Shown piece after piece: positions 11,082 through 47,084 of a DNA stretch of 64,000 nucleotides; positions within the stretch are counted from its first letter, which is position 1, and each line of letters begins with the position of its first letter. The notes beneath the pieces are model-generated. The model did no database searches. It saw only the letters and a program-made list of their open reading frames with translations, and was not told the DNA's origin. Origin of the DNA: Planctomycetota bacterium (GTDB taxonomy: Bacteria; Planctomycetota; UBA1135; GCA-002686595); the NCBI GenBank assembly GCA_016795245.1, contig JAEUIA010000097.1, positions 20,267 to 84,266 of the forward strand, given 5' to 3'. Position numbers and translations under genes: made by a program.

Positions 11082-13226
11082 ATGCAAAGCAATCACGAAT
11101 ACGCACGCACGGCGCCGCGGACAGGCGGCGTGGCACTCTGCGCGCGGGCGCTCTTGCCCGCCATTTTGGCCCTGGTCGCGGGCTGCGGCGGGGGAGGCTC
11201 GAAATCCTCACCGGCGGCGGCCACGCTCCCGGATTTCAGCGCTGCGGTGTTCACGAACCCCAGCGTCGTCGACCATCCGCTGTGGAATTTCCCTGTCGAC
11301 ACGGCCGCGACCTTCGCCTCGGCGAGCGGGTCCGAGATCGAGACCATCGTGGTCGAGCGTTTGCCCGGCACGCGCACGGTCATGGGGCTCGCCTGCATTC
11401 GCGTCCGTGATCGCGTGTTCAGCGACGGACTCTTGATCGAGGACACGGAGGATTGGTACGCGCAGGACGATGAGGGCAACGTCTGGTACATGGGCGAGGC
11501 GGTCGTCGACTACGAGTACGACGACGACGGCAATCTGATCGGCACGGCAACAGACGGATCCTGGGAAGCGGGTCTGGATCCGCTGGCCACGGGTGCGGTC
11601 GCGAGGCCCGGCTTCGCGATGAGGGCGAGTCCCGCGGTCGGCGATTTCTACTACCAGGAGTTCTACGAGGACGAAGCCGAGGACATCGGCCGAGTCGTGG
11701 AACTGAACGTGCCGATCACCCTCGCCGACGGCAGCCTGCACGCGTGCGTCAAGATCCGCGAGACGAGTTCGATCGACGCCACTGCGAACGAGTTCAAGTA
11801 CTTCGCTCCCGGCATCGGCCTGGTGCGCGAGGAGAAGATCGGCTCGGCCGAATCCCTCGAATTTCGCGGTCGATTCCTGATGAACGCGACCTCGCGCCCG
11901 GTGTTCGCGGCGGGGGACTTCAGCGCACCGAGCGTGATCACGCACCCCTTGTTCCCGTCCGTGGAGGAGCAGGCCTTGGTGTATTCGTTGTCGTCCGAGG
12001 ACGAATCAGAGACGATCGTCGTCGAGCGCCTGGCCGGGACGCGTGTCGTCTTGGGCATCGCTTGCGCGCGCGTGCGTGATCGCGTGTACAAGGACGGTCT
12101 TCTGATCGAAGACACCGAAGACTGGTTCGCTCAAGACGACGCCGGCAACGTCTGGTACATGGGCGAAGCCGTCGACAACTACGAGTACGACGAAGACGGC
12201 GTGTTGATCGGCGTCGACAACGACGGTTCGTGGGAAGCCGGACTCGACGTCGCCGGCACCGGGATGACGGCGCTGCCCGGCTATCAGCTTCCGGCGAATC
12301 CCGTGGTCGGCACGGCTTACTACCAGGAGTTCTACGTCGGCGAAGCCGAGGACATGGGGCTCACGGTTGCGACCGGCGTCACGGTGACCCTGCCCGACGG
12401 ACGCGTGTTCACCGGCTGCGTGCGCACGCTCGATTGGAATCCGCTGGAGCCGGATGGACTGGAGTACAAGCTCCACGCGCCCGGTCTGGGTCTAGTGCGC
12501 GAGGAAGCGCTGCACGAAGCGGAATCGGCCTCGCACGTCGGCACTTTCGACCGCAGCACGGCCTCGATTCCGAATTTCGGCGCGGCCGTGTTCACGACCC
12601 CGACGACGATCGACCATCCGCTGCAACCTTTCCCGCCCGCCGCGACCTGGGAGTACGAGGCCGAGACCGAGGACGGACTGGAGACGATCCTGATCGAAGT
12701 CCTGCCGCAGACGCGCGTCGTCATGGGGGTGATGTGCGCCGTCGTGCGCGACCGCGTGTTCCTCGAAGGCGTGATCATCGAAGACACCGAAGACTGGTTC
12801 GCGCAGGACGACGCGGGCAATGTCTGGTACTTCGGCGAGTTCGTCGTGAACTACGAGTACGACGACGACGGCGTGCTCCTGGGCACGAACAACGACGGTT
12901 CGTGGGAGGCAGGTCTGGACGTCGCCGGTGCCGGTTCGACGGCGCAACCCGGGATTCTGATGTGGGCGACGCCCGTTGCGGGGACGTCGTACTACCAGGA
13001 GTTCTACGCCGGCGAGGCGGAGGACATGGCCTTCATCGTCGCGACCGGCGTGACGGTGACGACGCCCGGCGGCGAGACCTACACGGGCTGCCTGCAGACC
13101 TTGGATTGGAATCCGCTGGAGCCGGACGGGCTCGAGTACAAGTTCTACGCGCCCGGCATCGGCTTCGTGTACGAGACGAAGTTGCACGAAGAAGAGGATT
13201 TGGAGCTCACCGACACGTCGCTCTGA
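11082..13226 (+). CDS. Lipoprotein built from three ~224-aa tandem internal repeats, unknown function
   Basis: Lipobox LVAGC. The block (I/V)IEDTEDW(Y/F)AQDD.GNVWY.GE...YEYD.DG.L.G...DGSWEAGLD ... YYQEFY..EAED recurs three times, with nucleotide anchors near 11430, 12100 and 12775. Confidence 0.8.
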   Translation: MQSNHEYARTAPRTGGVALCARALLPAILALVAGCGGGGSKSSPAAATLPDFSAAVFTNPSVVDHPLWNFPVDTAATFASASGSEIETIVVERLPGTRTVMGLACIRVRDRVFSDGLLIEDTEDWYAQDDEGNVWYMGEAVVDYEYDDDGNLIGTATDGSWEAGLDPLATGAVARPGFAMRASPAVGDFYYQEFYEDEAEDIGRVVELNVPITLADGSLHACVKIRETSSIDATANEFKYFAPGIGLVREEKIGSAESLEFRGRFLMNATSRPVFAAGDFSAPSVITHPLFPSVEEQALVYSLSSEDESETIVVERLAGTRVVLGIACARVRDRVYKDGLLIEDTEDWFAQDDAGNVWYMGEAVDNYEYDEDGVLIGVDNDGSWEAGLDVAGTGMTALPGYQLPANPVVGTAYYQEFYVGEAEDMGLTVATGVTVTLPDGRVFTGCVRTLDWNPLEPDGLEYKLHAPGLGLVREEALHEAESASHVGTFDRSTASIPNFGAAVFTTPTTIDHPLQPFPPAATWEYEAETEDGLETILIEVLPQTRVVMGVMCAVVRDRVFLEGVIIEDTEDWFAQDDAGNVWYFGEFVVNYEYDDDGVLLGTNNDGSWEAGLDVAGAGSTAQPGILMWATPVAGTSYYQEFYAGEAEDMAFIVATGVTVTTPGGETYTGCLQTLDWNPLEPDGLEYKFYAPGIGFVYETKLHEEEDLELTDTSL

Positions 13227-13395: not shown

Positions 13396-14979
13396 TCACG
13401 GCAGGACCGTGACGCGCACCCAGTTCTTCGTCAACTGACGCGGGTAGTTGAAGAGGCCCTGGAAGTAGAGCGTGGTTCCGATCTGCGACGTACCGTTCGG
13501 CAGGGTGAAGTTCACGCTGCTGGCTCCGCTCGTGTTCGTCGCCGGCGCAGGCACGGCCTGCATTCCCGTGCGGTTCAGGTAGAGCGTGCCGATGGCGCCG
13601 AAGTTGATCGGCGTCGCGAGGGCCGAGGTCGACCACAGGAGGGTCGACGGTACCGAGTCGCCTTGTCCCTGCATGACGAAGTTGATCGACGAACCGGGGC
13701 TCGGAATACCCGCTGCGCGGATGTCCTGCGGTTCGAAGGCGTAGAAGCGGATCGATCCGCCGCCGGCGTACAGGTTGGCGTGCACCGCCTTGGCCGCGAC
13801 CGCGACGCGCTCGCCGTCACCACTGATGTCGACGTCGAACACCGAACCCGTCAGGTTGTGCAGCGCGACGGGAGCGCTTTGGTTGCTCCGGTAGAGGCGC
13901 ACTTCCGGGCAGACGTCGCCGCCGTCACCCCACAAGCCCACCACGAAACGCGATCCGTCGCGCGACATGGCCATGTCCGCGGCCACGTTTTGCAACGTGC
14001 CGGTTCCGACGGCCTCGTCGGTCATCGTGATCGTCTTGGTGGCCACGTCGATGCACTCGACGCGCACGTGGTTGTTCGTGTCGTAGCCGTTGAACGTGTA
14101 CGCGACTTTCGAGCCGTCACCGGCGATGGCGATGCGCGCGCAGACGTAGGAACCCGGCAGGTTGCGCGTGTACGTTTTCGTGTAACCGCCGGACGCGTTG
14201 CGTTCCCAGATATCCATGTAATTGAAGCCGCCGTTCGCGATCACGCGCCCGTCGCCGGACATCGCGTGCGCCGAGTCGAGCGACGTCATGAGCACGTAGA
14301 GCGCGATGTTCGTGTGCGTGTTCGTGTCCCAGACGATGAACGACGTGCCGGACGCCAGGTAGAGCTTCGAACCGTCGCTCGAGAGGCTGAAGCCACGCAC
14401 TCCCATGGCGAAGTTGTCGATCGTGCCGCTCCACTGCGGAGTGCCGGAACTCGGCCCGAAGACACGGACGTCGAGCTTGCTGGTCAACGTCTGGTACGAG
14501 ACCGCGACGATGCGCGAGCCGTCGTCCGACACCGCGACCTTGGCGTTGCCCGCCGTCGTGCCCGGGAACGTGTACGTCCAATCGGGCGTGCTCGAAGCCG
14601 AGCGGTACTTGGACACCACCGTCTGCTTCGTGCTCTGGTTCGAGTTCAGCACGAGCTGGTGGATCGAGACGTGCACGTCCGCCATCTCCGCCGAGTCGAC
14701 GAGCGAGTACGCGCCCTCGATCGGCGTCGCGTTCGTCCACACCGGCGTCGCGGGATTCGTGTCGAACCCCGACAGCAACTCGGCGTGGTCTTGACCGAAC
14801 TCGATCTCCGTGAACACCTGCGTGCCCTGCGCGCCGATCGACACGCAGCGGCCGCTCCAGCCGGCGCCGTTGTCACCGCGCACCCACAACGCTCCGCCGG
14901 AGTTCACCTGCGCGTCGGCGGTGGCCGCGAACACACAGAGCGAAAAACCCGCGATCCAATACCCCATTGACTTGGTCAT
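13396..14979 (-). CDS. Secreted beta-propeller protein (WD40-like/TolB-like repeats) with a distinct C-terminal module
   Basis: Blade-like motifs recur: VSDDGSRIVAVS, LSSDGSKLYLAS, MSGDGRVIANG, IAGDGSKVAYT, MSRDGSRFVVG, ISGDGERVAVAA. The ATG at 14979 gives the signal peptide MTKSMGYWIAGFSLCVFAATADAQ, preceded by GAGGG. The track start at 14994 is GTG. Confidence 0.75.
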   Translation of the reverse strand: MTKSMGYWIAGFSLCVFAATADAQVNSGGALWVRGDNGAGWSGRCVSIGAQGTQVFTEIEFGQDHAELLSGFDTNPATPVWTNATPIEGAYSLVDSAEMADVHVSIHQLVLNSNQSTKQTVVSKYRSASSTPDWTYTFPGTTAGNAKVAVSDDGSRIVAVSYQTLTSKLDVRVFGPSSGTPQWSGTIDNFAMGVRGFSLSSDGSKLYLASGTSFIVWDTNTHTNIALYVLMTSLDSAHAMSGDGRVIANGGFNYMDIWERNASGGYTKTYTRNLPGSYVCARIAIAGDGSKVAYTFNGYDTNNHVRVECIDVATKTITMTDEAVGTGTLQNVAADMAMSRDGSRFVVGLWGDGGDVCPEVRLYRSNQSAPVALHNLTGSVFDVDISGDGERVAVAAKAVHANLYAGGGSIRFYAFEPQDIRAAGIPSPGSSINFVMQGQGDSVPSTLLWSTSALATPINFGAIGTLYLNRTGMQAVPAPATNTSGASSVNFTLPNGTSQIGTTLYFQGLFNYPRQLTKNWVRVTVLP

Positions 14980-15395: not shown

Positions 15396-18026
15396 TCAGC
15401 GCGCTTCGATCTTCTTCAATTCGTCGCGCACATCGGTGATGCGGGCGCGGATCAGGATCATCAGCGACTTGTTCTCGTCGCTGTAGCCCTCTTGCTTGAA
15501 GAAGAACCCGATGATCGGGATCTTCGCGATCCACGGGACTTCCGCGCGACGCTCGATGTTGCGGATGCTCGACAAGCCGCCGAGCATGATCGAGCCGCCG
15601 TCGGGGATGACCGCCGACGTGAAGACCGACTGCACTTGCAGCTCGGGGAGCTGGAACTGGATCGGCGACGTGTTGCCGCCGAGCGTCGAGCTGAAGTCGC
15701 GCAGCGCCACGACCTTGGCCACCGTCGGCTGGATCTCCAGCGTCAGGTACTTGCGGTTGTGGTGGATCGTCGGGCGCACGTCGAGCACGACGCCTTCGTT
15801 CAGGACGTTGATCTGCGGATCGGCGACGGCCTGGAACTGGGCGACTTCGACGTCGAAGTCCTGGATGTACGCGCGCTGGTTGATGACCGTGACGTACGCG
15901 CGCTGCGTGTTGTGCACGGACAGGACCTGGTCGTTGACGAGCTCGATGTTCGAGCTCTTCTCGACCGCGCGCAGGATCGCGCTCAGGTTGAGCTGATCGA
16001 GGAAGCCGAGCTGGAACGTAGCGCCGCCGATGGTGGAGAGCGCATTACCCAGGTTCGAGCCGAAGAAGTTCTGCGTCGTGGCACGGAAATCACCGTCCTG
16101 GCCGTCGTCGTAGAAGATACCGGCCGAAGGGTGACCGGCCGAGTTCTGGCCGGCCGTGCCCGTGCCGCCGTTGTCGAGGCCGCGTGAGGCCTGGTCTTCG
16201 AGGCCGTTCGTGACATCCGTGACGTCGATGTTGTCGAGGCCGCGGAAGTCGACGCCGATCTCCTGGATCCAGTTGGAAGCGACCGACAGGAACTTGGACT
16301 CGATCGTGACCAGCGACGAAGAGAAGCGGCGCAGGTCGTTCAGGAACTCGCGCACTTGGAGCTGCACTTCAGGCGTGTGGTTGATCAGGATGAAGCCCTC
16401 GGCGGCTTCGATCGAGACGCCCGCGTCCTGCCACGTGCCGACGGCGACGTTTTCCTGGATCAAGGTCGACAGGTCGGAGGGCTCGATGATCTTCGGCTTC
16501 TCGCCGATGCCGCCGAACGGGCCGCCGCCGTCGTCGTCCTGCATCTGATCGATGAGGCGCAGACGGTCGATGCGCGGACCCATGAAGTCGGTCAGGCCGA
16601 ACACGAGGTCCTGGACGTCGTGGTTGTAGATGATCGGCTTGTCGCGCGCCTTTTCCTTGGTCGTGATCAAGACCGCGTCGTGACGCACGGTCCAGGTGAC
16701 CTGGTCACCGGCCATCTTCGTGATCAGGTTCAAGACCTGTTCGGCGGTGAGACGGTTGTCGAAGTTGAAGTTGAAGACCGTCGCGTTGCTCTTGGCCGCG
16801 GCGTCGGCGGCCGGATCGACCACCAGCGGCAGGCCGGACTGGACGCGCAGGCCGTCGATCACGCGGATCAGGCTCTCTTCGTCCTTGGCGGCGACGTTCT
16901 GCACCGGCGTGTTGCGCAGGAGATCGCGCAGCGCGCGCTCCGACTCGCTGACCTTCTGCGAGAGGTCGATGCCGCGACGGCGCGAACGCAGGTCGGTGAT
17001 CTCGCTCCAGCGCTCGGCCGAGGGGAGCGTCAACTCCGGCGTCCAGGGGATCTCGAGTTCCTTCATCGACTCGCGCCAGCGGCGGTACTGCTCGTTCTTC
17101 TTCTCGACGTAGCTCGCCTTGACGGCCTTGCGACCGGCGCGGAACGACGCTTCGCGGATGTCCTTCGCCTGTTCGTTGCGCGGATCCTTGTCGAGTGCTT
17201 GCTGCGCGAAGTCCTCGGCGTCTTCGTACTCGCCGGCCTGGAACGCGCCGATCGCGCGGTCGAGGATGCCGTTCACTTGCGCGGTCTTGCGGTCGCGCAG
17301 CGTGGCTTCTTTCTCGCGCAGGGCTTCCGTGGCCTTGCGGCGCGCGGCCTCTTCGCTGGCCTTCTCGGCGCTCAAGCGCTGATCCTTGACGGTCTGGAGC
17401 ATCGACTTGGCTTCCGTGTCGAGGCCCTGCCAGTTGACCGAGTAGGGGGCGAAGCGCACCAGATTGTTCGCGATCTCCAGTTCGGTGATCGCGCCCTGGT
17501 AATCGTTGCGCGCGACGAGCACACGCGACTTCGCCAGCGCGTCTTGCACATCGGCCTTCATCTGCTGGACCTTCAGCGCGTACTGCTGCTCCATGTCCTG
17601 CGTGATGGTGCGCGCAGTGCCCGGGTCACCCCCGCGCATGCGGATCGATTCGGCGCGCAGGTCCTTGGCGCGCAGGTTCATGGGCTCGAGATCGAGCGCC
17701 GCAGCGGCTTCCAGTTCGGCCTCGGCGAACATCAAGTTCTTGAGGTAGGTCTCGGCGTTCTGGATGTGCTGCTGGATCAAGAAGGCCTTGCGCTGTTCAG
17801 CCAGCGAGAGCTTCTCGACATCCTGAGCGAGTTGCGAGCCGGGGCGGACGGTCCCGCCCGCGTCTTGCGGAGTGGCTTCGGCCGTGAGCGCGGCAGCAGA
17901 GGCCTTGGCCTCGGCGCTGTCCGCGCTCGCTTCGATCGCGTCGCCGTTCGAGCGGCAGGCCGCGAGGGCCAGGACGAGGACGAGGGGCAGGGCGTTCCCT
18001 GACGTCACGTAGCGGTGGTTCGACAT
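15396..18026 (-). CDS. Secretin-family outer-membrane lipoprotein (GspD/PilQ superfamily) with a TPR-like N-terminal region
   Basis: 876 aa, lipobox LALAAC. The C-terminal secretin signature is GGSIMLGGLSSIRNIERRAEVPWIAKIPIIGFFFKQEGYSDENKSLMILIRARI. The N-terminal ~300 aa are helical and TPR-like. Confidence 0.8.
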   Translation of the reverse strand: MSNHRYVTSGNALPLVLVLALAACRSNGDAIEASADSAEAKASAAALTAEATPQDAGGTVRPGSQLAQDVEKLSLAEQRKAFLIQQHIQNAETYLKNLMFAEAELEAAAALDLEPMNLRAKDLRAESIRMRGGDPGTARTITQDMEQQYALKVQQMKADVQDALAKSRVLVARNDYQGAITELEIANNLVRFAPYSVNWQGLDTEAKSMLQTVKDQRLSAEKASEEAARRKATEALREKEATLRDRKTAQVNGILDRAIGAFQAGEYEDAEDFAQQALDKDPRNEQAKDIREASFRAGRKAVKASYVEKKNEQYRRWRESMKELEIPWTPELTLPSAERWSEITDLRSRRRGIDLSQKVSESERALRDLLRNTPVQNVAAKDEESLIRVIDGLRVQSGLPLVVDPAADAAAKSNATVFNFNFDNRLTAEQVLNLITKMAGDQVTWTVRHDAVLITTKEKARDKPIIYNHDVQDLVFGLTDFMGPRIDRLRLIDQMQDDDGGGPFGGIGEKPKIIEPSDLSTLIQENVAVGTWQDAGVSIEAAEGFILINHTPEVQLQVREFLNDLRRFSSSLVTIESKFLSVASNWIQEIGVDFRGLDNIDVTDVTNGLEDQASRGLDNGGTGTAGQNSAGHPSAGIFYDDGQDGDFRATTQNFFGSNLGNALSTIGGATFQLGFLDQLNLSAILRAVEKSSNIELVNDQVLSVHNTQRAYVTVINQRAYIQDFDVEVAQFQAVADPQINVLNEGVVLDVRPTIHHNRKYLTLEIQPTVAKVVALRDFSSTLGGNTSPIQFQLPELQVQSVFTSAVIPDGGSIMLGGLSSIRNIERRAEVPWIAKIPIIGFFFKQEGYSDENKSLMILIRARITDVRDELKKIEAR

Positions 18027-18074
18027 CGTGAGTGATCTCTTCTCTTTGAAGGTGCGCTTTGCGTCAGGTGGGAA

Positions 18075-20729
18075 TCAGAGTTTGCTCGTGGGACGCGTCG
18101 TCGGTCCGAGCTGAGCGGGCGTAGGTTCGTGTTCTTGCGGGATCACGATCTCGGCCTTCAGCAGGATCAAGAGCTTGCGGTTGGACACGTACTGGCCCTT
18201 GCGCTCGAAGAAGAACGAGACGATCGGGATCTTGTTCAGGATCGGGACGCCGGAGCGTTGGTCCTGCTTGTCGGACACGCGCAGGCCGCCGAGCATCACC
18301 GTGCCGCCGTCGGGCATCGGGATCGAGGTGCGCACGCGCTGGATCTCGACTTCGGGCAGCTGGATCGTGACCGAGTTCTGCGAACCTAGCGTCGTGACGA
18401 CCTCGCGGATCGGCCGGCGCAGGTTGGCGATCGTCGGGCGCAGTTCGAGCGTGATGAAGCGGCGATCGGCCGAGACGACCGGGCGCACGTCGAGCACGAC
18501 ACCGTCCTGGACGACGTTCACGATCGGGTTCGCGATCGAGGCCGCCTGCGCGATTTCGACGTCGAAATCCTGCACGTAGGCGACCTGGTTCAGGACCGAC
18601 AGGTTGCCGCGCGCGGTGTTGTGCACCGTGATGCGCGGGCTGGTCACCAGTTCCACGCGCTCGGACTTCGAGACCGCGCGCAAGATCAGCTGGAGCTGCA
18701 GGTCGTTCAGGTAGGTCCATTGGAACGAGAGGCCGCCCGAGTTCTGGACCACGTTCGAGTCGCCCAACGACGAGTCGTAGAGCTGCTCGACGCGCGCGCG
18801 CAGGTTGTCCTTGCCGCCGCGGTCGTAGAAGGCACCGAGGTCGGTGTTCTGGCCGATCTCGTTGCCGAGGTCCTGCTGCGTCGAGGCGTCACCGAAGTCG
18901 TTGAAGAACGCGTTCGTGCCGAGGCCCGGTTGACCGAGGCCGCGGAAATCGACGCCGATGTCTTCCAGGAAGTTGTCCTCGACTTTGAGGAAGCGCGCCT
19001 GGATGTCGACCATGATCCCGGTCGCTTCGCGCAAATCGTCGAGCAGTTTGAGGATCTGCTCGTGCACTTCCGGCGTCTGGTGCACGACCATCGTGCCGTT
19101 GGTGATGCGCAGCGAGTTCTGCGGGTCGTCGGCCCACGACTGCGGGGCGACGTTGTTGCGGATCAGATTGTCGAGTCCCGAGTCGGTGATGACGTTCGAT
19201 TCGCGCTCCGCGAGGTCTTCGTCCGCGAGTTGCACGCCGCCCGAGGGCGCCACGTTCATCTCGCGACCAGGGAAATCGGGGATCGGGTGGATCAAGTCGC
19301 GCACTTCGTAGTTGCGCAGGACTTGTCCGCCCTTCGTCTCATCCTTCGTGACGAACTTGACGACGCCGTCTTCGATCTTCCAGAACAGGTTCTCCTTGGT
19401 CTCGGAGATGAGGTCGAGCACGTTGCGCACGCTGCGCTCGTTCAAGTCGAGCTTGACCGTGCGCTGTTCGTCGTCGAGGTCGCTCTTGACCTTCGGGCTG
19501 AGCATGAAGTTCAGGCCCGTGATCTGCTGCAGGAAGGTGGCGATCTCGTCCAGCGACGAACCGTTGCCGTCCGTGCCGACGAACTTCGGCGTGAACTGCA
19601 CGGAATCGAGGCGGTCGAGCACCATCTGCTTCTCGGCCGACGTGCCGTGGTCGAGCGCGGCGAATTCCTGCGGCTTGCGCTGACTGACTTCCTTCCAACG
19701 CTTGGGATTGAAGTCGATCGTGGTCGTCTGGATGACGTTGGAGGTTTCGAGTTCCTCCATCGTGCGGATCCACTGCTCGCGGTAGTTGCGACGGTTCTCG
19801 CTGTCGGCCTTCGAGTGACGCGCGTCGCGCGCGATGCCGCGCAATTCGGTCGCGGCCTTGTTGCCCGGATCCTCGAGCAGGATCTGCGCGCACAACTGCT
19901 CGCACTTGGTGTAGTTCTCGCTCAGGAACGCGCCGTTGGCGTCGGAGTAGAGCGTGCGCAGCTTGTTCTCGCGGTACTGCGCTTCTTCGCGCGCCTTGCG
20001 GTCGCGCGCTTCCGCGGCGGCGGCCATCGCGCGTTGCTCTCCGGAAGCGCGGGCCTCGTCGGCCATGCGCAGCGCCATCTCGAGTTCGCCCGCGGCGACC
20101 TTCTGGTCGAGCGAGTCGGTCGCGATCAGCGGGTTGTAGCGCAGGATCATCTCGGCCTGGCGGAACTGCTCGATCGCGCGGTCGTAGTCGCCCGAGGCGA
20201 GCGCACTCTTGCCGCGCTGACGGGCGTCTTCGGCGGCCATGCGCGCCTGCGAGCGGCGCACCATCGCCTGCTCGGTCGCGTCCACGAGGAACGACGACGC
20301 ACCGGCGTACTTGTCGCCCATGAGCGCCTGGACCTTGCGCATCTTGTCGCGCGCGACCGTGCTGGTCGGGTCGATGTCCAGGGCGGCCGAGTACGCCGTC
20401 AGGGCGCCGGCCAGGTCGGCTTGATCCAAGAGGCGGTCGCCCTCCTGGATCGAGGCCTGCGACAGGAACGCACCCTGCTGGCGCAAGAGTTCGAGGCGCG
20501 CGGCGTCGCCGCTCAGGCTGCCCGGGTCTTGCGGTGCCATGGGACTCGCGGCTTCGACTACCGCGGAATCCTGGGGCGCCTCGAGCGGGTCCTGACGCGC
20601 TTCGAGCGGACCGGCGAGCGTCGTCGCGGCCTTGCCTTCGCGCGTCGGTTCGCTCGCGGGGTCGTGGGCGGTCTTGCAGGCGCTGGGAAGGGCCGCGAGG
20701 AGCGGCACAAGGATCAACCTCAACTGCAT
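18075..20729 (-). CDS. Secretin-family outer-membrane lipoprotein, paralogue of the downstream gene
   Basis: The ATG at 20729 gives MQLRLILVPLLAALPSAC (lipobox). The C-terminus GGTVMLGGLRVSDKQDQRSGVPILNKIPIVSFFFERKGQYVSNRKLLILLKAEI matches the secretin signature. There is a 48-bp gap to the next secretin gene. Confidence 0.8.
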   Translation of the reverse strand: MQLRLILVPLLAALPSACKTAHDPASEPTREGKAATTLAGPLEARQDPLEAPQDSAVVEAASPMAPQDPGSLSGDAARLELLRQQGAFLSQASIQEGDRLLDQADLAGALTAYSAALDIDPTSTVARDKMRKVQALMGDKYAGASSFLVDATEQAMVRRSQARMAAEDARQRGKSALASGDYDRAIEQFRQAEMILRYNPLIATDSLDQKVAAGELEMALRMADEARASGEQRAMAAAAEARDRKAREEAQYRENKLRTLYSDANGAFLSENYTKCEQLCAQILLEDPGNKAATELRGIARDARHSKADSENRRNYREQWIRTMEELETSNVIQTTTIDFNPKRWKEVSQRKPQEFAALDHGTSAEKQMVLDRLDSVQFTPKFVGTDGNGSSLDEIATFLQQITGLNFMLSPKVKSDLDDEQRTVKLDLNERSVRNVLDLISETKENLFWKIEDGVVKFVTKDETKGGQVLRNYEVRDLIHPIPDFPGREMNVAPSGGVQLADEDLAERESNVITDSGLDNLIRNNVAPQSWADDPQNSLRITNGTMVVHQTPEVHEQILKLLDDLREATGIMVDIQARFLKVEDNFLEDIGVDFRGLGQPGLGTNAFFNDFGDASTQQDLGNEIGQNTDLGAFYDRGGKDNLRARVEQLYDSSLGDSNVVQNSGGLSFQWTYLNDLQLQLILRAVSKSERVELVTSPRITVHNTARGNLSVLNQVAYVQDFDVEIAQAASIANPIVNVVQDGVVLDVRPVVSADRRFITLELRPTIANLRRPIREVVTTLGSQNSVTIQLPEVEIQRVRTSIPMPDGGTVMLGGLRVSDKQDQRSGVPILNKIPIVSFFFERKGQYVSNRKLLILLKAEIVIPQEHEPTPAQLGPTTRPTSKL

Positions 20730-21670
20730 GGGATCACAGACCTTCCTGATGGTCGCGCGCGGGGGCGCGGAAGAAGCTAGAGACAAACGAGGTGTTCGAG
20801 CACGCGCTTCCGAAACACGGCACTCGCGCCGCGCCGGAATTCGCTGAACAGAACACGATCGCGCGCGTGCGCGACCCAGAGGGGGGATTGGAGATCAACG
20901 GTGGGCAGGGGGGGGACGATCGATGAGCAGGCTTCGGGGCCGGACCCCGAGGAAGCTGTCCTCATCGCGAGAAACCAGGCCGATTCGATTCAGAAGAGTT
21001 GGTACCGGAAGCCTCCGCAAAGTGGCGTCGCGCGGTCGTCGGAGGCACCCGCGCGGAGTGCGTCCCGAGCGTTGGTTCCCACGCGTGGAACAGAGCGGAA
21101 CTTCCTGATGTGGGCCCGGTTGGGGGCAGAGCGGTCCGGGAGGATAGCGAGCACTCCGAAGTGGGTCAACGCTTCGAAACGTTCGCTGAACAAGCCGGAA
21201 CTCTTCCACGAGTCGCAGGAGCGGGACGCGGAAGAGCAGGGGCCGACTACCGCGGGCGGCTCTCCCGGTTACCTGCTTCCTACCGCACTCTCTGCGTGTT
21301 GAGCCGCACACCCGCGCACTCGACCCGCTCTTGGGAAGGACACTGGCTCCTCTCGCTGGTCTCGCGCGGATCGACCCCTCCGCACCGGCCCAGGAACAGG
21401 CTGCATCGGATCGGGTACCTGTGCGCAAACGCCAGGAACGCGGCTTCGGTAGCCACGACCAGCGGAGACAGCCACTACCCCTTGGAATCTCAGTCCACAT
21501 ACGGGGCGTGATTCCCGGATGGGTAGGGGAACGAGGCGAACAGCCTGCCTACGGAGCCCGCGGCCGCAGCTTTGGAGGTGAGGCGAAGCGTTGCGGCGCC
21601 GCACGCGAGACGCCGGTTCTCGCGATGCAAGTTCCTACATATTCAGCTTTGTGCAGCGAATCTTCGACGT

Positions 21671-26313: not shown

Positions 26314-27888
26314 TCAGGGAGCCAGACCGGAGCGCACGCGACACGCGCGGACGACGACCGGCGGTTGCATGCCGGTCGGCCGCAGCATGATTTCGCACAT
26401 CCCGCCCAGCGCGGGGATCGAGATGTCGCGCGTGTCGCGACGCGAGCTCGCGGGCAGCATCGCGCGTTGATTGCGCTTGAACCCTTCGTCGCCCGCGCGG
26501 CGCCACATGATGTCGAGTGAGCCCGTCGCGTCGGACTCGAATTCGATCTGCACGCGTACTTCGCCTTGCGCAGGCATGGGGAACGGCCCGCACACGAGAC
26601 CGTCCTTCGCAGAAGTGCGCTGCAACCGATAGCCCCCGTCCGCGGTGCGCGTGAGGTCCAGACCGTCGACCGGACGAGCCTTCTCCGGCGTGGCGGCCAG
26701 ATCGAACAGCACGTGCGGAAGCGCGTCGAACACACCGCTGTCGACTGCGAGCGGAGGCTCCGGCACAGCCGTGGGACTCGGGACGTGGTTGCGCAGGTAG
26801 CGTTCGACGAACATCTCGACCACGATGCGCGTGTTCCTGCCGTCGATGCGCTGTCGGTCGTAGAGCCCTTCGCTCATGTCGAGCGTCTCGAAGCTCTGTG
26901 CGAGCGTCGCGGCGATGAACGGACCGAAGGAGTCGTGAAACACGATCGTGTGGGGGAGGAGATTGGGATCGAGTCCGCGCGTGCGCACCCAGGTCGGCGC
27001 CCTGATCGTCTGCTCCAAGAGCTGGATGCGGTTCGGTTCGCGCCGCACCAGCGAATCGCCCGGCTGGACCAGCAGTCCCATCAGGTACAGGTTGCTCGCC
27101 AAGGAGTCGGCGCCGACTTCGTAGCGCTGGATCTCGAAGGCCTCGAACGGCAGCGGGCCGGCGTACGAAGTGCCCTCCGCGAGCCGACCCACGAGCGCGT
27201 TGTAGGCCGTGTACACGCCGCGGCTCGTCCAGTGGGTTCCGTGCGGTGTGTACAAGGGATCCATCGGCCCGGTGTCGTGCTGCTTGGCGGCGAGAAACGC
27301 CGGGCGCATGTCGAGCACGTTCACGTCGGAATGCGCGCTCATCCACGCCACGAACTGGTCCATCCGCGTCGGACCGTTCCGCGGAATCGATGCGGGCAGG
27401 TGCTCGGGGTAGATCGATTCCTTGTTGGGCACGAGCGCGAACAGGTACCGCCGCCCGCCGGCTGCATGCATCGCGGCGCGCGCTTCGAGTTCGCCTTGCC
27501 AGGCCATGAGTTGCGCCTCGGTGAACGGCAGCGCGCCGCTGACGACTTCCATCGAGTAGTCGCCGGCGTAGTAGATCCAGCCGTGTTCGCCCACCACCTG
27601 TGACCTGGTCGGCGCGAGCTTCAGACCGAAGTACTTCTGGATGCTGTTCAGGCGCAAGATCTTGTCGCGCAACCCAAACGTGTCGTTGAAGTGGGACTCG
27701 TACCTGGCCGGGTACTTGTAGAGCGCCTCGGGATCGGGCTTGAGTGTGGGCTTCGGCGTCGGCGCGCGAAATTCCGGTGCCGTGTCGCGCTCCACATCGG
27801 CGCGCACGAACAGGTCGAAAGTCGGCGCGAGCAGGGCGGCCGCGAAAAGCACGATCAGCGCTGCGTTGGAGATGTTGCGCGGGCTCAT
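26314..27888 (-). CDS. AlgX/AlgJ-like (SGNH-like) polysaccharide O-acetylation protein
   Basis: 524 aa with an N-terminal TM anchor (ALIVLFAAALLAP). The motif YTPHGTHWTSRGVYTAYNAL matches the D/G-THW-T...G motif of the AlgJ/AlgX family. It lies 2 nt downstream of an MBOAT gene. Confidence 0.7.
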   Translation of the reverse strand: MSPRNISNAALIVLFAAALLAPTFDLFVRADVERDTAPEFRAPTPKPTLKPDPEALYKYPARYESHFNDTFGLRDKILRLNSIQKYFGLKLAPTRSQVVGEHGWIYYAGDYSMEVVSGALPFTEAQLMAWQGELEARAAMHAAGGRRYLFALVPNKESIYPEHLPASIPRNGPTRMDQFVAWMSAHSDVNVLDMRPAFLAAKQHDTGPMDPLYTPHGTHWTSRGVYTAYNALVGRLAEGTSYAGPLPFEAFEIQRYEVGADSLASNLYLMGLLVQPGDSLVRREPNRIQLLEQTIRAPTWVRTRGLDPNLLPHTIVFHDSFGPFIAATLAQSFETLDMSEGLYDRQRIDGRNTRIVVEMFVERYLRNHVPSPTAVPEPPLAVDSGVFDALPHVLFDLAATPEKARPVDGLDLTRTADGGYRLQRTSAKDGLVCGPFPMPAQGEVRVQIEFESDATGSLDIMWRRAGDEGFKRNQRAMLPASSRRDTRDISIPALGGMCEIMLRPTGMQPPVVVRACRVRSGLAP

Positions 27889-27890
27889 CG

Positions 27891-29441
27891 CTAGAACCGG
27901 AAATAGATGAACGGGTTGTAGGCGCCCGAAGCGAGGCCCATCGCCGCTTGCAGGAAGATGAACGCGAGCGCGACGATCCCCGCCATTTCGAACGCGAACG
28001 CCAGTCCGGTCCGGCCCTTCTCCGCGAGGCGTTGCACCCAGTCACCCACGCGCGGCAACCACGGCGTCGCACCGACGACGCCGGCCGCGACGGCGATCCA
28101 GGTCAGAATGTTGGCGAAGCTCGCCATGGGATGCAGCGCGCCCGCAGACACCCACGCGTCGTCGATCGGAGGGTGCGGCAGGTGCACGAGCTTCTCGCCC
28201 CCGAGTCCGAACAGGGTCTGCAGGAAGCCCAACGCGTGATTCAGATCGACCGCGCGGAAGAACACCCAACCGACCATCACGACCAACAACACGTACACGT
28301 GCCGCAGCCACGCGCCGCGCCGCCCCAGCCAATCGCCGAGCCCGAGGCGTTCGAACACCAGGAACATCCCGTGGTAGAAGCCCCAGACGAGGAACGTGAA
28401 ATTCGCACCGTGCCACAGACCGCACAAGAAGAACACGAGCACGAGGTTCACGTACGTGCGCGACTTCGAGACGCGATTTCCGCCGAGCGGGATGTAGAGG
28501 TAGTCGCGGAACCAGGTCGAGAGCGAGATGTGCCAGCGGCGCCAGAATTCCGTGATCGAGCGCGAGATGTAGGGGTAGTTGAAGTTCTCGAGGAACTTGA
28601 ACCCGAACATGTGACCCAGTCCGATCGCCATGTCGGAGTAGCCCGAGAAATCGAAGTAGATCTGCAGCGTGTAGCAGACGATGCCCAGCCACGCGACGTC
28701 CATCGGCAATTCGTTCACGGGCAGCGCGAACACCTTGTCGCAGGCTTCCGCGCACACGTTCGCGATCAGCATCTTCTTGCCTAGTCCGATCACGAAGCGC
28801 CGGATGCCGTAGGCGAAACCCGTGAGGGTGACGGTGCGCTCCACGATCTGCTCGGCGACGTCGCGGTAGCGCACGATCGGCCCGGCGATGAGCTGGGGGA
28901 AGAGACCCACGTAGAGCCCGATGTCGAGCGGATTCTTGTTCACCGCGCCGTCGCGCCGGTACACGTCGATCACGTAGGAAAACGCCTGAAACGTGAAGAA
29001 CGAGATCCCGATCGGCAGGCGGATCGATTCGTCCTCGTTCAGGAGCACCGCGCGCAGCGGTGAATCCGTTGCGAGGTGACTGCCCAGCGCGGGCAACGTC
29101 GCATCGACGATTCCGAGCGCGTTGAGCAGCGCTCCGCTCGTGTGCCAGATCCAGTCCGCGTACTTGAACGCGATCAACAGGCCCAGGTTGAACACCATCG
29201 CCACGACGAGCACGCCGCGACCACGGCCGCGTGCTCGCGCTCGATCGACCCACAGCCCGAAGAAGTAGTTGGCGGTGATCGAAGCGATCATCACCAGCGA
29301 CATCACCGGCTCGCCCCAGGCGTAAAACACCAGGCTGGCGAGGAGCAACAGCCCGTTCCTGAGGCGCGGGTGCACCACCAGGTACAAGGCCAGCACCAAC
29401 GGCAGGAACAGGAAAACGAAGAGCGCGGAACTGAACAGCAT
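27891..29441 (-). CDS. MBOAT-family membrane O-acyltransferase (AlgI/DltB-like)
   Basis: FWRRWHISLSTWFRDYLYIPLGGNR carries the conserved MBOAT His region, and the protein is multi-TM. The ATG at 29441 gives MLFSSALFVFLFLPLVLALYLV. The track start at 29549 overlaps the upstream gene. Confidence 0.88.
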   Translation of the reverse strand: MLFSSALFVFLFLPLVLALYLVVHPRLRNGLLLLASLVFYAWGEPVMSLVMIASITANYFFGLWVDRARARGRGRGVLVVAMVFNLGLLIAFKYADWIWHTSGALLNALGIVDATLPALGSHLATDSPLRAVLLNEDESIRLPIGISFFTFQAFSYVIDVYRRDGAVNKNPLDIGLYVGLFPQLIAGPIVRYRDVAEQIVERTVTLTGFAYGIRRFVIGLGKKMLIANVCAEACDKVFALPVNELPMDVAWLGIVCYTLQIYFDFSGYSDMAIGLGHMFGFKFLENFNYPYISRSITEFWRRWHISLSTWFRDYLYIPLGGNRVSKSRTYVNLVLVFFLCGLWHGANFTFLVWGFYHGMFLVFERLGLGDWLGRRGAWLRHVYVLLVVMVGWVFFRAVDLNHALGFLQTLFGLGGEKLVHLPHPPIDDAWVSAGALHPMASFANILTWIAVAAGVVGATPWLPRVGDWVQRLAEKGRTGLAFAFEMAGIVALAFIFLQAAMGLASGAYNPFIYFRF

Positions 29442-29472
29442 GCGGGGGGGGAGTGGACCGAGCGCGAGAAGT

Positions 29473-30765
29473 CTATCCCGTGATCGGCCGCGCCGATGCC
29501 TGGGAATCTTCGTGCGGGAAGAACGGCAGCGTCGCCAGCCCGACGACACCCAGCGTGCACACCACCCAGAAGAAGCGGCCGAAGCCCAGCCACTCCACCA
29601 TGTCGCCGCTGTAACGACCCGCGAGCCAGGCCGACAAGGCCATGATCCCTGTCGAGATCGCGTAGTGCGTGGTCGAGAAGCGCGTGCCGCGCGAGAGGGC
29701 GAGGAGCGCCGCCATGTAGGCCGAGAATCCCAGCCCGTAGCCGAATTGCTCGACGCCGATGACCGCGGTGATCGCGGAGCGTTCGAAGTGCGCGGTCGCG
29801 GCCCAGGCGTACAGGAGGTTCGGGACGTGCAGCGCGAGTGCGCAGGGGAGCAGAGCGCGCTTCAACCCGACGCGCGCGATCCACATGCCGCCCAGGATGC
29901 CGCCCGCGACGAGCGCGACCACGCCCACCGTGCCGTAGATGAAGGCGACGTCGAGTTCGTTCAAGCCCACGCCGTCCTTCGCGCGCTCCGTGAGCAGGAA
30001 GGGCGCCAGCATCGGCGTGAGCAGCGATTCGCCCAGCCTGAACAGCAGGATGAACGCGATGCCTCCGACGATGCCGGGGCGTGCGAAATACGCCTGCAAC
30101 GACTCGACGAAGTCGTTCCACCCGATCCCCGAGCGGCGCGTCGGCGCGTCGTTCGACGGACGCGGCAGAGCGGCGAAATGCCAGACGGTCGAGAGTGCGT
30201 AGACGAGAGCGCACGCACCGAAGGCGAGGCTCCACGCGTGCGCGGTGTTGCCATCGTCGCCCGCTTTCAACCAACCGGCGATGCCGATCGCGCCGCCCAT
30301 CACGGCGATGCGCCCGATGCGGAAAGCCGCGCTGCGCGCGCCGACGAAGAACTCCTGGTCGTGCTTCGTGAGCGCCAGGATGTAGAAACCGTCGGTCGCG
30401 ATGTCGTTCGAGGCGCCGGCGACCGCGATCATGAGACACGCGAGCGCGACGTGCGTGACCGGATCGGGGCCTTGGATCGCCCAAGCCAGCGCTGCGATCG
30501 CGAGGCTGGTCGCGACGGCCGAGAGGATCAGCCAACCGCGCTTCGTCCCGAACAGATCGATCAGCGGACTCCACAGCGGCTTGAGCATCCACGGGAGCGT
30601 GAGATCGCTCGCGTAACGGCCGATGTCGGCGACGGGCACGCCCAGGATCTTGAAGTAGGTCGTCGTCGCTGCCTGCACGACGAAGTAGGCGAGACCCTGG
30701 TTCGTGTACAGCGTCGGCACGAAACTCCACGGGGACTTCGTCGGCGGACTTTCGTGGGCGCTCAT
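29473..30765 (-). CDS. MFS transporter of the AmpG / PAT (peptide-acetyl-CoA transporter) type
   Basis: 430 aa, multi-TM. The N-terminal region VPTLYTNQGLAYFVV...LPWMLKPLWSPLIDLFGTKRGWLILS resembles AmpG-family permeases. It is first gene of the MFS-MBOAT-AlgX-like string. Confidence 0.6.
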   Translation of the reverse strand: MSAHESPPTKSPWSFVPTLYTNQGLAYFVVQAATTTYFKILGVPVADIGRYASDLTLPWMLKPLWSPLIDLFGTKRGWLILSAVATSLAIAALAWAIQGPDPVTHVALACLMIAVAGASNDIATDGFYILALTKHDQEFFVGARSAAFRIGRIAVMGGAIGIAGWLKAGDDGNTAHAWSLAFGACALVYALSTVWHFAALPRPSNDAPTRRSGIGWNDFVESLQAYFARPGIVGGIAFILLFRLGESLLTPMLAPFLLTERAKDGVGLNELDVAFIYGTVGVVALVAGGILGGMWIARVGLKRALLPCALALHVPNLLYAWAATAHFERSAITAVIGVEQFGYGLGFSAYMAALLALSRGTRFSTTHYAISTGIMALSAWLAGRYSGDMVEWLGFGRFFWVVCTLGVVGLATLPFFPHEDSQASARPITG

Positions 30766-41663: not shown

Positions 41664-41883
41664 GGGAGAAACTCGCGAGAGCAGGTGGCAGAGAGCGCGA
41701 CGAAATGTCGACTCACAGTGCGACTCGCGCGTGCATGGTAGATCTGCGCACGAAAAGCGGGGAGTGGGGCGGTTGGAATGCGGCGAGGCCGGCATACGTC
41801 ATGGGGACGTGGGCCGACCTCGCGGGGCGGGGGGGGGCGAAGGGCTGGGGGTCCCCGTGCGTCAGGGTTGTGGGGTGTTCCCC

Positions 41884-41981
41884 TCTACTACTGGATCCGG
41901 CAAATTTGCCGGATCTCTACTACTGGATCCGGCAAATTTGCCGGATCGTGGATCCGACAAATTGCCGGATTGGATTGCCGG
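41884..41981. repeat. Two perfect 32-bp tandem units plus a degenerate third, each containing a 22-bp palindrome
   Basis: 41884-41915 and 41916-41947 are identical: tctactactggatccggcaaatttgccggatc. The palindrome is GATCCGGCAAATTTGCCGGATC. The degenerate unit is gtggatccgacaaattgccggat, followed by tggattgccgg. The block ends 2 nt before the stop codon of CHRD paralogue 2. Confidence 0.9.
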
Positions 41982-41982
41982 G

Positions 41983-42909: not shown

Positions 42910-43168
42910 GGGGGAAGGCCTCGCGGGCGCGGATTTCTGGAGTGCGACGATGTGTCGTCTCACAGCGCGACTACAGGCACATGGTAGTGCGAGGTGGTCT
43001 TCTTGGGGATGGAGGGTGGAAATGCAGCAAGGCCGACCGCGTCACGGGGAGGGACGGGCCGGCCTTGCGGGGGAGCGCCAGTTGGAGCAGCTGAGTCCGG
43101 AGGTCGTCCTTGCAAAGCTCGAGTCGGCCAGTCTGCCGCCTCGGCCTGGATCCCTCCACGCGGCCTGC

Positions 43169-47064: not shown

Positions 47065-47084
47065 ACAGGGGGCCGTGGGGGGAG

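What the first reader, a model, noticed from the sequence alone, without database searches (positions are those of the whole stretch)
15396..20729. Two tandem TPR-secretin lipoprotein paralogues with no cognate secretion or pilus machinery nearby
- **What the sequence shows:** both genes (876 and 884 aa from the proposed starts) have a lipobox, a ~300-aa helical TPR-like N-terminal region and a C-terminal secretin domain.
- **Secretin motifs:** ...GG.(I/V)MLGGL......R....VP...KIPI(I/V).FFF...G.......L(M/L)IL(I/L).A.I.
- **Why it is unusual:** secretins of T2SS, T4P, T3SS and filamentous phage are normally encoded with an ATPase, platform and pilotin genes. None is visible within this window. 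The neighbours are a beta-propeller protein and a repeat lipoprotein on one side and a 0.94-kb gene-free gap on the other.
- **Interpretation:** a duplicated secretin could form a hetero-oligomeric or alternative channel. The lipidated TPR head might replace a pilotin or docking factor.
Basis: partly seen in the sequence, partly recalled or inferred. Interest (0 to 1): 0.66.

Follow-up and report, generated by a model that had tools for sequence, protein, structure and literature searches.

The report
Paired planctomycete secretins, motor genes lost
These two neighbouring genes encode an old, conserved pair of outer-membrane channel proteins (secretins) of a planctomycete; in most related species the same pair brackets genes for a proton-driven TolQ/TolR-type motor, a combination not described before, and this genome has lost those motor genes from the locus.

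Summary
Window 15396-18026 (secA, 876 aa) and 18075-20729 (secB, 884 aa), both on the minus strand, encode predicted lipoproteins. Each has a TPR-like helical head, an N0-like and an N1-like domain, and a secretin domain (Pfam E 3e-22 and 2e-25). No secretion ATPase, platform or pilin gene lies in the 64 kb.

They are not evolutionary orphans.
- The paralogues are about 31% identical, while each has orthologues at 47-87% identity in about 80 Planctomycetota species of the Saltatorellus lineage.
- In 47 of 80 species-representative loci, including cultured Saltatorellus ferox, the two genes flank a cassette: TPR (~990 aa), TPR (~400 aa), TolQ/ExbB-like, and two or three TolR/ExbD-like genes.
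- Four deeper-branching metagenome contigs also carry pilM-type or Y-type pilus-alignment genes upstream of the secB-type gene.
- The window belongs to a derived clade that lost the cassette, leaving the genes 48 bp apart.

The closest known kind is the PVC-type PilQ (Akkermansia Amuc_1098), but all curated family cut-offs are missed.

My best reading is two outer-membrane channels of a hybrid pilus-alignment/TolQR-coupled envelope machine. Its other parts are encoded elsewhere or dispensed with in this genome. I rate it a new variant of a known kind, of moderate-to-high interest.

The parts
18075..20729 (-). secB: the upstream secretin paralogue, 884 aa, at the 'PilQ position' of the ancestral operon
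   Evidence: ORF and translation. Pfam Secretin E 1.7e-25. Orthologues are 57-85% identical. The secB clade, which includes a pilM-linked member, has 196/200 bootstrap support.
15396..18026 (-). secA: the downstream secretin paralogue, 876 aa. It lies at the distal end of the TolQR cassette in relatives.
   Evidence: ORF and translation. Pfam Secretin E 3e-22. It is 31-32% identical to secB over about 860 aa. Orthologues are 47-87% identical. The clade has 200/200 bootstrap support.
20676..20729 (-). secB signal peptide and lipobox (…LPSA-C18)
   Evidence: Cys18 is invariant in a 78-sequence alignment. The Cys is conserved in 49/50 informative orthologues, with A or S at position -1.
17955..18026 (-). 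secA signal peptide and canonical lipobox (L-A-A-C24)
   Evidence: The Cys is conserved in 82/82 informative orthologues, with [AG] at position -1.
19743..20519 (-). secB helical, TPR-like head (aa 71-329)
   Evidence: In the AF2 model most 10-residue blocks have pLDDT 80-97, with dips to 65-79. Pfam TPR_11 and TPR_2 hits lie just below threshold. This region aligns to the N-terminal part of the Amuc_1098 family model.
19020..19649 (-). secB N0-like (aa 361-475) and N1-like (aa 506-570) periplasmic domains
   Evidence: AF2 secondary structure and confidence. Foldseek matches to the N-domain plus barrel chains of BfpB, PilQ, InvG and PulD.
18144..19013 (-). secB secretin beta-barrel and gate domain (aa 573-862)
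   Evidence: Pfam PF00263 covers aa 686-862. AF2 strands. PDB phmmer hits to pIV, PilQ and GspD.
17058..17837 (-). secA helical, TPR-like head (aa 64-323)
   Evidence: In the AF2 model most 10-residue blocks have pLDDT 82-94, with dips to 54-76. Pfam Fis1_TPR_C and TPR_2 hits at aa 257-294.
15432..16871 (-). secA N0-like domain (aa 386-467), N1-like domain (aa 516-569) and secretin domain (aa 571-865)
   Evidence: AF2 model, at lower confidence. Pfam Secretin covers aa 687-864. PDB hits to RcpA, pIV and GspD.
18027..18074 (-). 48-bp secB-secA spacer: the scar where relatives carry the 7-10 kb TPR-TPR-TolQ-TolR-TolR cassette
   Evidence: Coordinates. The cassette lies between the orthologues in 47 of 80 species loci and in divergent metagenome contigs.
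20730..21670 (-). 0.94-kb non-coding leader between the UDG gene and secB
   Evidence: No ORF with coding composition. No Rfam match. One weak promoter-like site. A gap of about 0.3-1.1 kb occupies the same place in 35 related loci. In L094, pilM and a Y-type gene occupy this position. No relic of those genes is detectable here.
13396..14979 (-). Signal-peptide beta-propeller-like protein (527 aa) downstream of secA. It is clade-specific and its link to the secretins is uncertain.
   Evidence: Translation shows repeated S-x-DG-x-x-V motifs. There is only a weak Pfam propeller hit. An orthologue sits in the same position in 12 of 29 compact-type loci (window included) and in none of the cassette-type loci.

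Best explanation
secA and secB are an ancient, co-inherited pair of paralogous outer-membrane lipoprotein secretins.

**Architecture.** Each has a lipid anchor, a disordered linker, a TPR-like helical head, N0-like and N1-like domains, and a secretin barrel. They belong to the planctomycetal (PVC-type) PilQ lineage.

**Inferred ancestral operon.** pilM, X, Y, secB, TPR (~990 aa), TPR (~400 aa), tolQ-like, tolR-like (two or three copies), secA.
- secB holds the PilQ position next to a PilM/N/O-like alignment complex.
- secA closes a cassette that encodes a proton-motive-force 5:2-type stator and two exported YbgF-like TPR proteins.

**Order of losses.** The Saltatorellus lineage lost pilM-X-Y from the locus. 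S. ferox has a separate pilM-pilO-pilQ cluster. The window's subclade then also lost the TPR/TolQR cassette, leaving secB and secA 48 bp apart, probably co-transcribed.

**Proposed mechanism (inferred).** Each secretin forms a gated multimeric outer-membrane channel, either as two homo-oligomers or as a mixed ring. The periplasmic TPR/N0 rings dock onto inner-membrane partners. Ancestrally, one partner was a TolQR-like motor reached through TPR adaptors. Opening or transport would then be coupled to proton-motive force, not only to a T2SS/T4P ATPase. The fused lipidated TPR head probably replaces a separate pilotin. In this genome the partners must be supplied from elsewhere, or the channels work without the dedicated motor.

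**Shown:** the architecture, the paralogy, the conservation of the pair, the gene-order series and the absence of ATPase genes.
**Inferred:** physical coupling to TolQR, the direction of transport and the substrate.
For: **Architecture.**

**Old duplication with both copies retained.** Paralogues are about 31% identical and orthologues 47-87%. secB was present in all 67 loci where the region upstream of secA was visible.

**Cassette between the two genes.**
- It is present in 47 of 80 GTDB species loci, including S. ferox Poly30.
- Sampled homologues of the ~990-aa TPR protein and sampled cassette-type ExbB hits lie in that same position.
- The cluster persists in contigs whose secretins are only 34-41% identical and whose GC ranges from 0.48 to 0.70. 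At that distance passive synteny should have decayed.
- The tightly packed L099 operon runs from pilM to the second secretin, with gaps of 9-130 bp.

**Identity of the cassette.** It is TolQ-like, TolR-like and YbgF-like by NCBIfam.

**The compact arrangement is derived.** It is nested in the secA tree.

**A separate PilQ exists in S. ferox.** A pilQ next to pilO and pilM is listed in the supplement of 10.1101/817700.

**No secretion ATPase nearby.** No GspE/PilB-type signature occurs in the roughly 170 loci held.

**Related precedent.** PVC 'TPR-tolQ-tolR-tolR' modules are reported as uncharacterised force-transducing systems (PMC12204202).
Against: - The cassette was lost from the locus at least four times while both secretins stayed intact.
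- After that loss, the TPR and N0/N1 domains are no less conserved relative to the barrel than in cassette-bearing lineages. So the dedicated motor is dispensable, replaced in trans, or never physically coupled.
- Within the Saltatorellus lineage the whole neighbourhood is syntenic, including functionally unrelated genes (UDG, HAD, Opp). Gene order there is therefore weak evidence.
- In many cassette loci, non-coding gaps of 0.3-1.5 kb precede secA and secB. This suggests separate transcription units.
- No TonB/TolA-like transducer is encoded in the cluster.
- No protein-protein evidence exists.
- I could not read the rest of the window's genome.
Confidence: 0.5

Rival explanations
1. They are simply extra PilQ-type secretins. 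They serve type IV pilus (or Tad/T2SS-like) machines whose ATPase, platform and alignment genes lie elsewhere. The TolQR/TPR cassette is an unrelated envelope module, for example Tol-like, that happened to sit between them.
For: - secB-type secretins sit directly after pilM-X-Y or Y-type genes in L099, L094, L113 and L122.
- The wider family is pilM-linked.
- The architecture matches Akkermansia Amuc_1098, called PilQ.
- The best partial NCBIfam hits include MshL and PilQ.
- Repeated cassette loss did not relax the periplasmic domains.
- pilQ is normally unlinked from pilB and pilC (textbook).
Against: - S. ferox already has a pilQ in its own pilM-pilO cluster. secA and secB would be a second and third secretin.
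- secA is never pilM-adjacent.
- The cassette stays bracketed by the two secretins across very deep divergence, and in one tight operon.
- Both proteins score far below the PilQ, MshL and GspD cut-offs, and no AMIN domain was detected.
Confidence: 0.3
2. The locus is a planctomycetal substitute for Tol-Pal. In this reading the secretin multimers act mainly as lipidated outer-membrane anchors. A TolQR motor pulls on them through TPR proteins to keep the outer membrane attached or to constrict it during division or shape change, and they do not transport anything.
For: - The cassette proteins score best against TolQ, TolR and YbgF/CpoB models.
- No TolA, TolB or Pal is encoded in the cluster.
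- The Saltatorellus clade lacks FtsZ and shows uncoupled inner- and outer-membrane division and shape-shifting (10.1101/817700).
Against: - All those scores are far below the equivalog cut-offs.
- The secretin gate and barrel motifs are fully conserved, which suggests a working channel.
- Many species dropped the cassette but kept both secretins.
Confidence: 0.12
3. In the window's clade the pair is a decaying remnant, with no function left after the motor was lost.
For: The cassette is gone from the locus. One relative, L005, shows a split secA.
Against: - Both ORFs are intact in 29 compact-type loci (28 relatives plus the window), which are up to about 35% diverged at the protein level.
- The domain-wise conservation profile matches that of cassette-bearing lineages.
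- The lipobox and secretin motifs are conserved.
- The L005 split may be an assembly error.
Confidence: 0.03

Closest known systems
Amuc_1098 ('PilQ') of Akkermansia muciniphila, the PVC-type TPR-secretin (NCBIfam NF042912)
   Same: - Similar length (907 aa) and the same order of parts: an N-terminal BamD-like TPR region and a C-terminal secretin (PMC4960237).
- secB aligns to the family model across the head and N-domains (aa 141-723 to model positions 15-620).
- Distant planctomycetal family members also sit behind a PilM/FtsA-like gene.
   Different: - Scores are 113 and 67 bits against a cut-off of 750.
- Here there are two diverged paralogues in tandem.
- There are no pilM-like neighbours in the window.
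- The ancestral neighbours include a TolQR motor and large TPR proteins.
Type IVa pilus secretin PilQ with the PilMNOP alignment complex and a TPR lipoprotein pilotin (PilF/PilW/Tgl)
   Same: - An N0 domain plus a secretin barrel.
- In four deep-branching contigs the secB-type gene follows pilM and/or bitopic X/Y-type genes.
- A TPR lipoprotein function is present, but fused to the secretin.
   Different: - No AMIN domain and no Secretin_N Pfam hit were detected.
- TIGR02515 scores are 59 and 83 against a cut-off of 284.
- S. ferox has a separate pilQ.
- A second secretin and a TolQR cassette belong to the cluster.
TolQ-TolR / ExbB-ExbD 5:2 motors with TPR partners, including the uncharacterised PVC 'TPR-tolQ-tolR-tolR-vWA' clusters and the Myxococcus AglRQS-Glt gliding machinery
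   Same: - One TolQ-like gene plus a heterologous pair of TolR-like genes, preceded by TPR genes (PMC12204202).
- Agl-Glt, recalled from the literature, likewise combines a TolQR-like motor, TPR proteins and outer-membrane proteins; this comparison was not tested here.
   Different: - Here the outer-membrane partners are secretins, not TonB-dependent barrels, Pal, vWA transducers or Glt barrels.
- No TonB/TolA-like or vWA transducer gene lies in the cluster.
- The window itself lacks the motor.
Self-piloting lipoprotein secretins such as BfpB (T4bP)
   Same: BfpB is an N-terminally lipidated secretin and the top Foldseek match (9u5s, E 1.5e-10).
   Different: - Only 14% identity.
- BfpB lacks the ~260-aa TPR head.
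- BfpB is encoded inside a complete pilus operon.

Membership tests
Secretin superfamily (Pfam PF00263) | C-terminal secretin domain scoring above the gathering threshold | tested here: met
   79.4 and 90.0 bits against a threshold of 27.5. Foldseek and PDB phmmer hits are to secretins of all classes.
Secretin superfamily (Pfam PF00263) | Forms SDS-resistant 12-15-mer outer-membrane rings | not testable with these tools
   Only monomer models could be made.
T2SS secretin GspD (TIGR02517) | Equivalog score at or above the cut-off, with an N0-N1-N2-N3 domain series | tested here: not met
   71.6 and 78 bits against 351. Only N0 and one N-like domain appear in the models. No Secretin_N Pfam hit.
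T2SS secretin GspD (TIGR02517) | Encoded with gspC-M, and with gspE/gspF | tested here: not met
   None in the window. No GspE-type Walker A signature in about 170 related loci.
T4aP secretin PilQ (TIGR02515) | Subfamily score at or above the cut-off, with AMIN domain(s) | tested here: not met
   59 and 83 bits against 284. No AMIN hit.
T4aP secretin PilQ (TIGR02515) | Encoded downstream of pilM-N-O-P | tested here: inconclusive
   Not in the window, nor in the Saltatorellus-lineage loci. However, secB-type genes follow pilM-X-Y or Y-type genes in L094, L099, L113 and L122. secA-type genes never do.
Amuc_1098 family type IV pilus outer membrane protein (NF042912) | Equivalog score of at least 750 | tested here: not met
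   112.9 bits (secB) and 66.7 bits (secA). The architecture is shared.
MSHA secretin MshL (TIGR02519) | Equivalog score of at least 250 | tested here: not met
   96 and 104 bits, covering the C-terminal half only.
Bacterial lipoprotein (SPase II substrate) | Signal peptide followed by a lipobox with an invariant Cys | tested here: met
   secA has L-A-A-C24 and secB has P-S-A-C18. The Cys is conserved in 82/82 and 49/50 orthologues. Lipidation itself was not tested.
Tol-Pal / TonB energising systems (for the ancestral cassette, which is absent from the window) | TolQ/ExbB and TolR/ExbD equivalog scores, plus a TolA/TonB transducer | tested here: not met
   TolQ 78.6 bits against 221; TolR 54.5 against 127. 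Pfam MotA_ExbB and ExbD domains are present. No TolA/TonB-like gene is in the cluster. The window has no ExbB or ExbD homologue.

The most novel reading that the evidence does not exclude
The secB … TolQRR … secA cluster, with PilM/N/O-like genes in its oldest form, encodes a previously undescribed envelope-spanning machine. In it, two secretin channels are driven or gated by a proton-motive-force 5:2 motor through periplasmic TPR scaffolds. That would make it a secretin system powered like TonB/Tol or T9SS, not by a cytoplasmic ATPase. It might serve uptake of large polymers, or the surface motility and shape-shifting of Saltatorellus-clade planctomycetes. The window would show a reduced version that runs on a motor supplied in trans.
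Probability: 0.3. Interest if true: 0.85.

Novelty: new variant of a known kind. Interest (0 to 1): 0.62.

Why it matters
Secretins are textbook components of ATPase-driven systems: T2SS, T3SS, T4P and filamentous phage. A lineage in which a conserved pair of secretins is encoded around a TolQ/TolR-type stator and large TPR proteins suggests a different way to couple energy to a giant outer-membrane channel. I found no report of it in the searched literature.

It occurs in the clade of shape-shifting Saltatorellus. Related planctomycetes take up macromolecules by unknown routes.

A cultured, sequenced strain carries the full cluster: S. ferox Poly30, NZ_CP036434.1, about 5.153-5.176 Mb. The idea is therefore directly testable. 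The natural 'deletion series' gives ready-made comparative material:
- full operon with pilM;
- without pilM;
- without the motor, as in this window.

For annotation, the result shows that these 'GspD/CpaC-like hypothetical proteins' are neither T2SS nor Tad components.

Tried and rejected
- **Upstream gap, RNA and promoters.** An Rfam scan of the 0.94-kb gap gave no match. The promoter/terminator scan was at background level.
- **Upstream leaders, shared motifs.** A shared-k-mer search of the secB leaders gave only GC-rich words, probably from signal-peptide coding sequence.
- **Relics in the window.** I found no convincing relics of pilM, X or Y. I found no ExbB, ExbD or TPR cassette genes.
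- **Extra genes in the long gaps before secA in cassette loci.** ORFs there lack coding composition, and there is no TonB-like gene.
- **Relaxed constraint after cassette loss.** The TPR and N0 domains show no difference from cassette-bearing lineages. This counts against strict coupling.
- **A relocated cassette in the compact clade.** I matched contig lengths of TPR-990 and ExbB homologues to the long compact-clade contigs. None matched. This test is weak, because only those contigs are covered and only the top 120 ExbB hits.
- **The window's own contig.** It is a 91,333-bp NCBI record, but the look-up returned nothing.
- **Assignment to a solved secretin class by sequence.** Both proteins are about equally distant from pIV, PilQ, GspD, RcpA and BfpB.
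- **A 16-sequence alignment as a metagenome query.** It was too diverse and was rejected. A 6-sequence alignment worked.
- **Beta-propeller and triple-repeat lipoprotein neighbours.** Neither has an NCBIfam hit. The lipoprotein has no Pfam hit and the propeller only one weak hit. I found no evidence tying the lipoprotein to the secretins; it is absent from the related loci.
Full report
**1. What is in the window**

The window is about 67% G+C. Its coding frames stand out by GC3.

Two minus-strand ORFs sit at the reported coordinates. secA is 15396-18026 (876 aa). secB is 18075-20729 (884 aa). They are 48 bp apart.

- Both exceed the Pfam Secretin gathering score: 79.4 and 90.0 bits against 27.5. 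Both have near-threshold TPR hits.
- NCBIfam gives only partial, sub-threshold matches: MshL, GspD, PilQ, SctC and, for secB, the Amuc_1098 family at 113 bits against a cut-off of 750.
- Against solved structures, both are about equally remote from f1 pIV, PilQ, GspD, RcpA and BfpB.
- AlphaFold2 models have mean pLDDT 68 (secB) and 58 (secA); the helical head is the most confident part. Both show a signal peptide and Cys, a disordered linker of about 50 aa, a TPR-like helical region of about 260 aa, an N0-like domain, an N1-like domain and a secretin barrel. Neither has an S-domain.
- Foldseek returns secretins of every class, with the lipoprotein secretin BfpB first, plus TPR proteins.
- The lipobox cysteine is conserved in 82/82 secA and 49/50 secB orthologues.

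**2. Surroundings in the window**

On the same strand, downstream of secA, lies a signal-peptide beta-propeller-like gene (13396-14979). Next come an oppositely oriented triple-repeat lipoprotein (11082-13226) and a HAD hydrolase, followed by an Opp/Dpp-type ABC transporter.

Upstream of secB is 0.94 kb without a credible ORF or Rfam match. Beyond that lie a uracil-DNA glycosylase-family (UDG) gene and unrelated genes: radical SAM, AlgX/MBOAT, Der, glycosyltransferases, three CHRD paralogues and a dcw cluster.

No T2SS or T4P component is present. No GspE/PilB-type Walker A signature occurs in any reading frame.

**3. The pair is old and conserved**

secA and secB are about 31% identical to each other. 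Each has orthologues at 47-87% identity in about 80 species-representative genomes. These are nearly all Planctomycetota MAGs, plus cultured Saltatorellus ferox Poly30.

secB was present in all 67 loci where the region upstream of secA could be seen.

**4. What lies between the two genes in relatives**

In 47 of the 80 species-representative loci, S. ferox included, the orthologues are separated by a same-strand cassette. The cassette comprises:
- an exported TPR protein of about 990 aa;
- an exported TPR protein of about 400 aa;
- a MotA/ExbB-family protein;
- two or three ExbD-family proteins.

By NCBIfam these score best as TolQ, TolR and YbgF/CpoB-like, all far below the equivalog cut-offs.

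I sampled two of the 63 detected homologues of the large TPR protein and two of the top cassette-type ExbB hits. All four lie in exactly this position.

A secA tree places the window in a derived clade that has the compact secB-secA arrangement. That clade is nested among cassette-bearing lineages. At least three further independent reductions are visible.

**5. Deeper history**

An exhaustive search shows that the TPR-N0-secretin architecture is a large family. It has 1,038 clusters (at 50% identity) with E ≤ 1e-30. All sampled members that carry a name are from Planctomycetota.

A metagenome scan gave three kinds of locus.
- **(a) The same two-secretin/TolQR cluster.** It appears in contigs whose secretins are only 34-41% identical to secB, with GC from 0.48 to 0.70.
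- **(b) Distant family members (25-35% identical to secB) in pilM-X-Y-secretin clusters.** Pfam PilM_2 hits have E 1e-33 to 1e-44. This is the planctomycetal T4P alignment/secretin operon and mirrors the Akkermansia Amuc_1098 'PilQ' (PMC4960237).
- **(c) Four contigs that join both.** In L099 the order is pilM, X, Y, secretin, TPR, TPR, ExbB, ExbD, ExbD, secretin, HAD, with gaps of only 9-130 bp. L094 carries pilM, a Y-type gene and both secretins, but no ExbB gene was detected in it. L113 carries pilM, a Y-type gene, the secB-type gene and the start of the large TPR gene before the contig ends. L122 carries only a Y-type gene, the secB-type gene and a partial ExbB at the contig end.

In a bootstrapped NJ tree the secA clade has 200/200 support. 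The secB clade, which includes the pilM-linked L113, has 196/200. Whether the two clades are sisters is unresolved (93/200).

The most economical series has four stages:
1. pilM-X-Y-PilQ;
2. addition of the TPR/TolQR cassette and a second secretin;
3. loss of pilM-X-Y from the locus (Saltatorellus lineage);
4. loss of the cassette (the window's clade).

S. ferox and two other cultured strains have a separate pilQ next to pilO and pilM (supplement of 10.1101/817700). In that lineage secA and secB are therefore additional secretins.

**6. How it probably works**

*Shown:* two lipidated PVC-type secretins, kept as a pair, are ancestrally embedded with a PMF stator and TPR proteins. In the oldest forms they also sit with PilM/N/O-like genes. 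A secretion ATPase is never adjacent.

*Inferred:* each forms a gated outer-membrane multimer. Its TPR/N0 ring docks to inner-membrane partners, and the fused TPR lipoprotein head substitutes for a pilotin. The ancestral machine coupled the channels to a TolQR-type motor through TPR adaptors. In the window's organism those partners act in trans, or the secretins work without the dedicated motor.

I put this at about 0.5, because of the following counter-evidence:
- The cassette was lost repeatedly.
- After that loss, the TPR and N0/N1 domains are no less conserved than in cassette-bearing lineages.
- Synteny inside the Saltatorellus lineage extends to unrelated genes.
- Long non-coding gaps precede both secretin genes.
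- No TonB/TolA-like transducer is encoded in the cluster.

**7. Rivals**

- Plain T4P-type secretins serving machinery elsewhere, with the cassette incidental: about 0.3.
- A Tol-Pal-like tethering role: about 0.12.
- A decaying remnant: about 0.03. This is contradicted by intact, evenly constrained ORFs in 29 compact-type loci.

**8. Comparison with what is known, and novelty**

The closest known kind is the PVC-type PilQ (Amuc_1098). The architecture is shared, but every curated family cut-off is missed.

TPR-tolQ-tolR-tolR modules in PVC bacteria have been noted as uncharacterised force-transducing systems with vWA partners (PMC12204202).

I found no report that links such a module to secretins.

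I classify this as a new variant of a known kind. The window holds the reduced form. The informative full form is in relatives, including a cultured strain, which makes the hypothesis testable.

Noticed in passing
window 11082-13226 (+): A lipoprotein (LVAG-C) built of three ~215-aa repeats that are about 50% identical to each other. It has no Pfam or NCBIfam hit. No homologue appears in any related locus, including the closest relatives L007 and L008.
   Followed up: partly
window 13396-14979 (-): A signal-peptide protein with six or more S-x-DG-x-x-V propeller-like repeats and a C-terminal beta-rich tail. It sits directly after secA in 12 of 29 compact-type loci (window included) and is never seen in cassette-bearing loci. 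It could be a substrate or partner gained after the cassette was lost.
   Followed up: partly
window 20730-21670, and the equivalent UDG-secB gaps in 35 loci: A long non-coding leader of about 0.3-1.1 kb always precedes secB. In cassette loci a similar gap of 0.5-1.5 kb precedes secA. There is no Rfam match and no conserved motif was found. In L094 this position holds pilM and a Y-type gene.
   Followed up: partly
L099:167-16398 (metagenome contig Ga0310120_10000151): A tightly packed 11-gene operon: pilM, X, Y, secretin, TPR, TPR, ExbB, ExbD, ExbD, secretin, HAD. It is the most complete form of the system and the best template for modelling.
   Followed up: yes
L038, L041, L046, L069: Intermediate reduction. 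Only a divergent, Ala/Gly/Pro-rich TPR protein of about 960-990 aa remains between secB and secA, and the motor genes are gone.
   Followed up: partly
L005:12894-15318 (GCA_016709875.1): The secA orthologue is split into two frames. This is either a frameshift (pseudogene) or a long-read assembly error.
   Followed up: no
window 40743-45347 (-): Three paralogous CHRD-domain proteins (~335-350 aa); two are adjacent and the third lies ~1.4 kb further on.
   Followed up: no
window 26314-29861 (-): An AlgX-like SGNH domain protein next to an MBOAT acyltransferase, a pair resembling those used for polysaccharide O-acetylation. The same pair is syntenic in relative L004.
   Followed up: no
window 47037-60873 (+): A dcw-type cluster: mraW, an FtsI-like PBP, Mur ligase, mraY-like, ftsW, a LysM protein, murG and murB. 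No ftsZ was seen in the part read. This agrees with the reported lack of FtsZ in the Saltatorellus clade.
   Followed up: no
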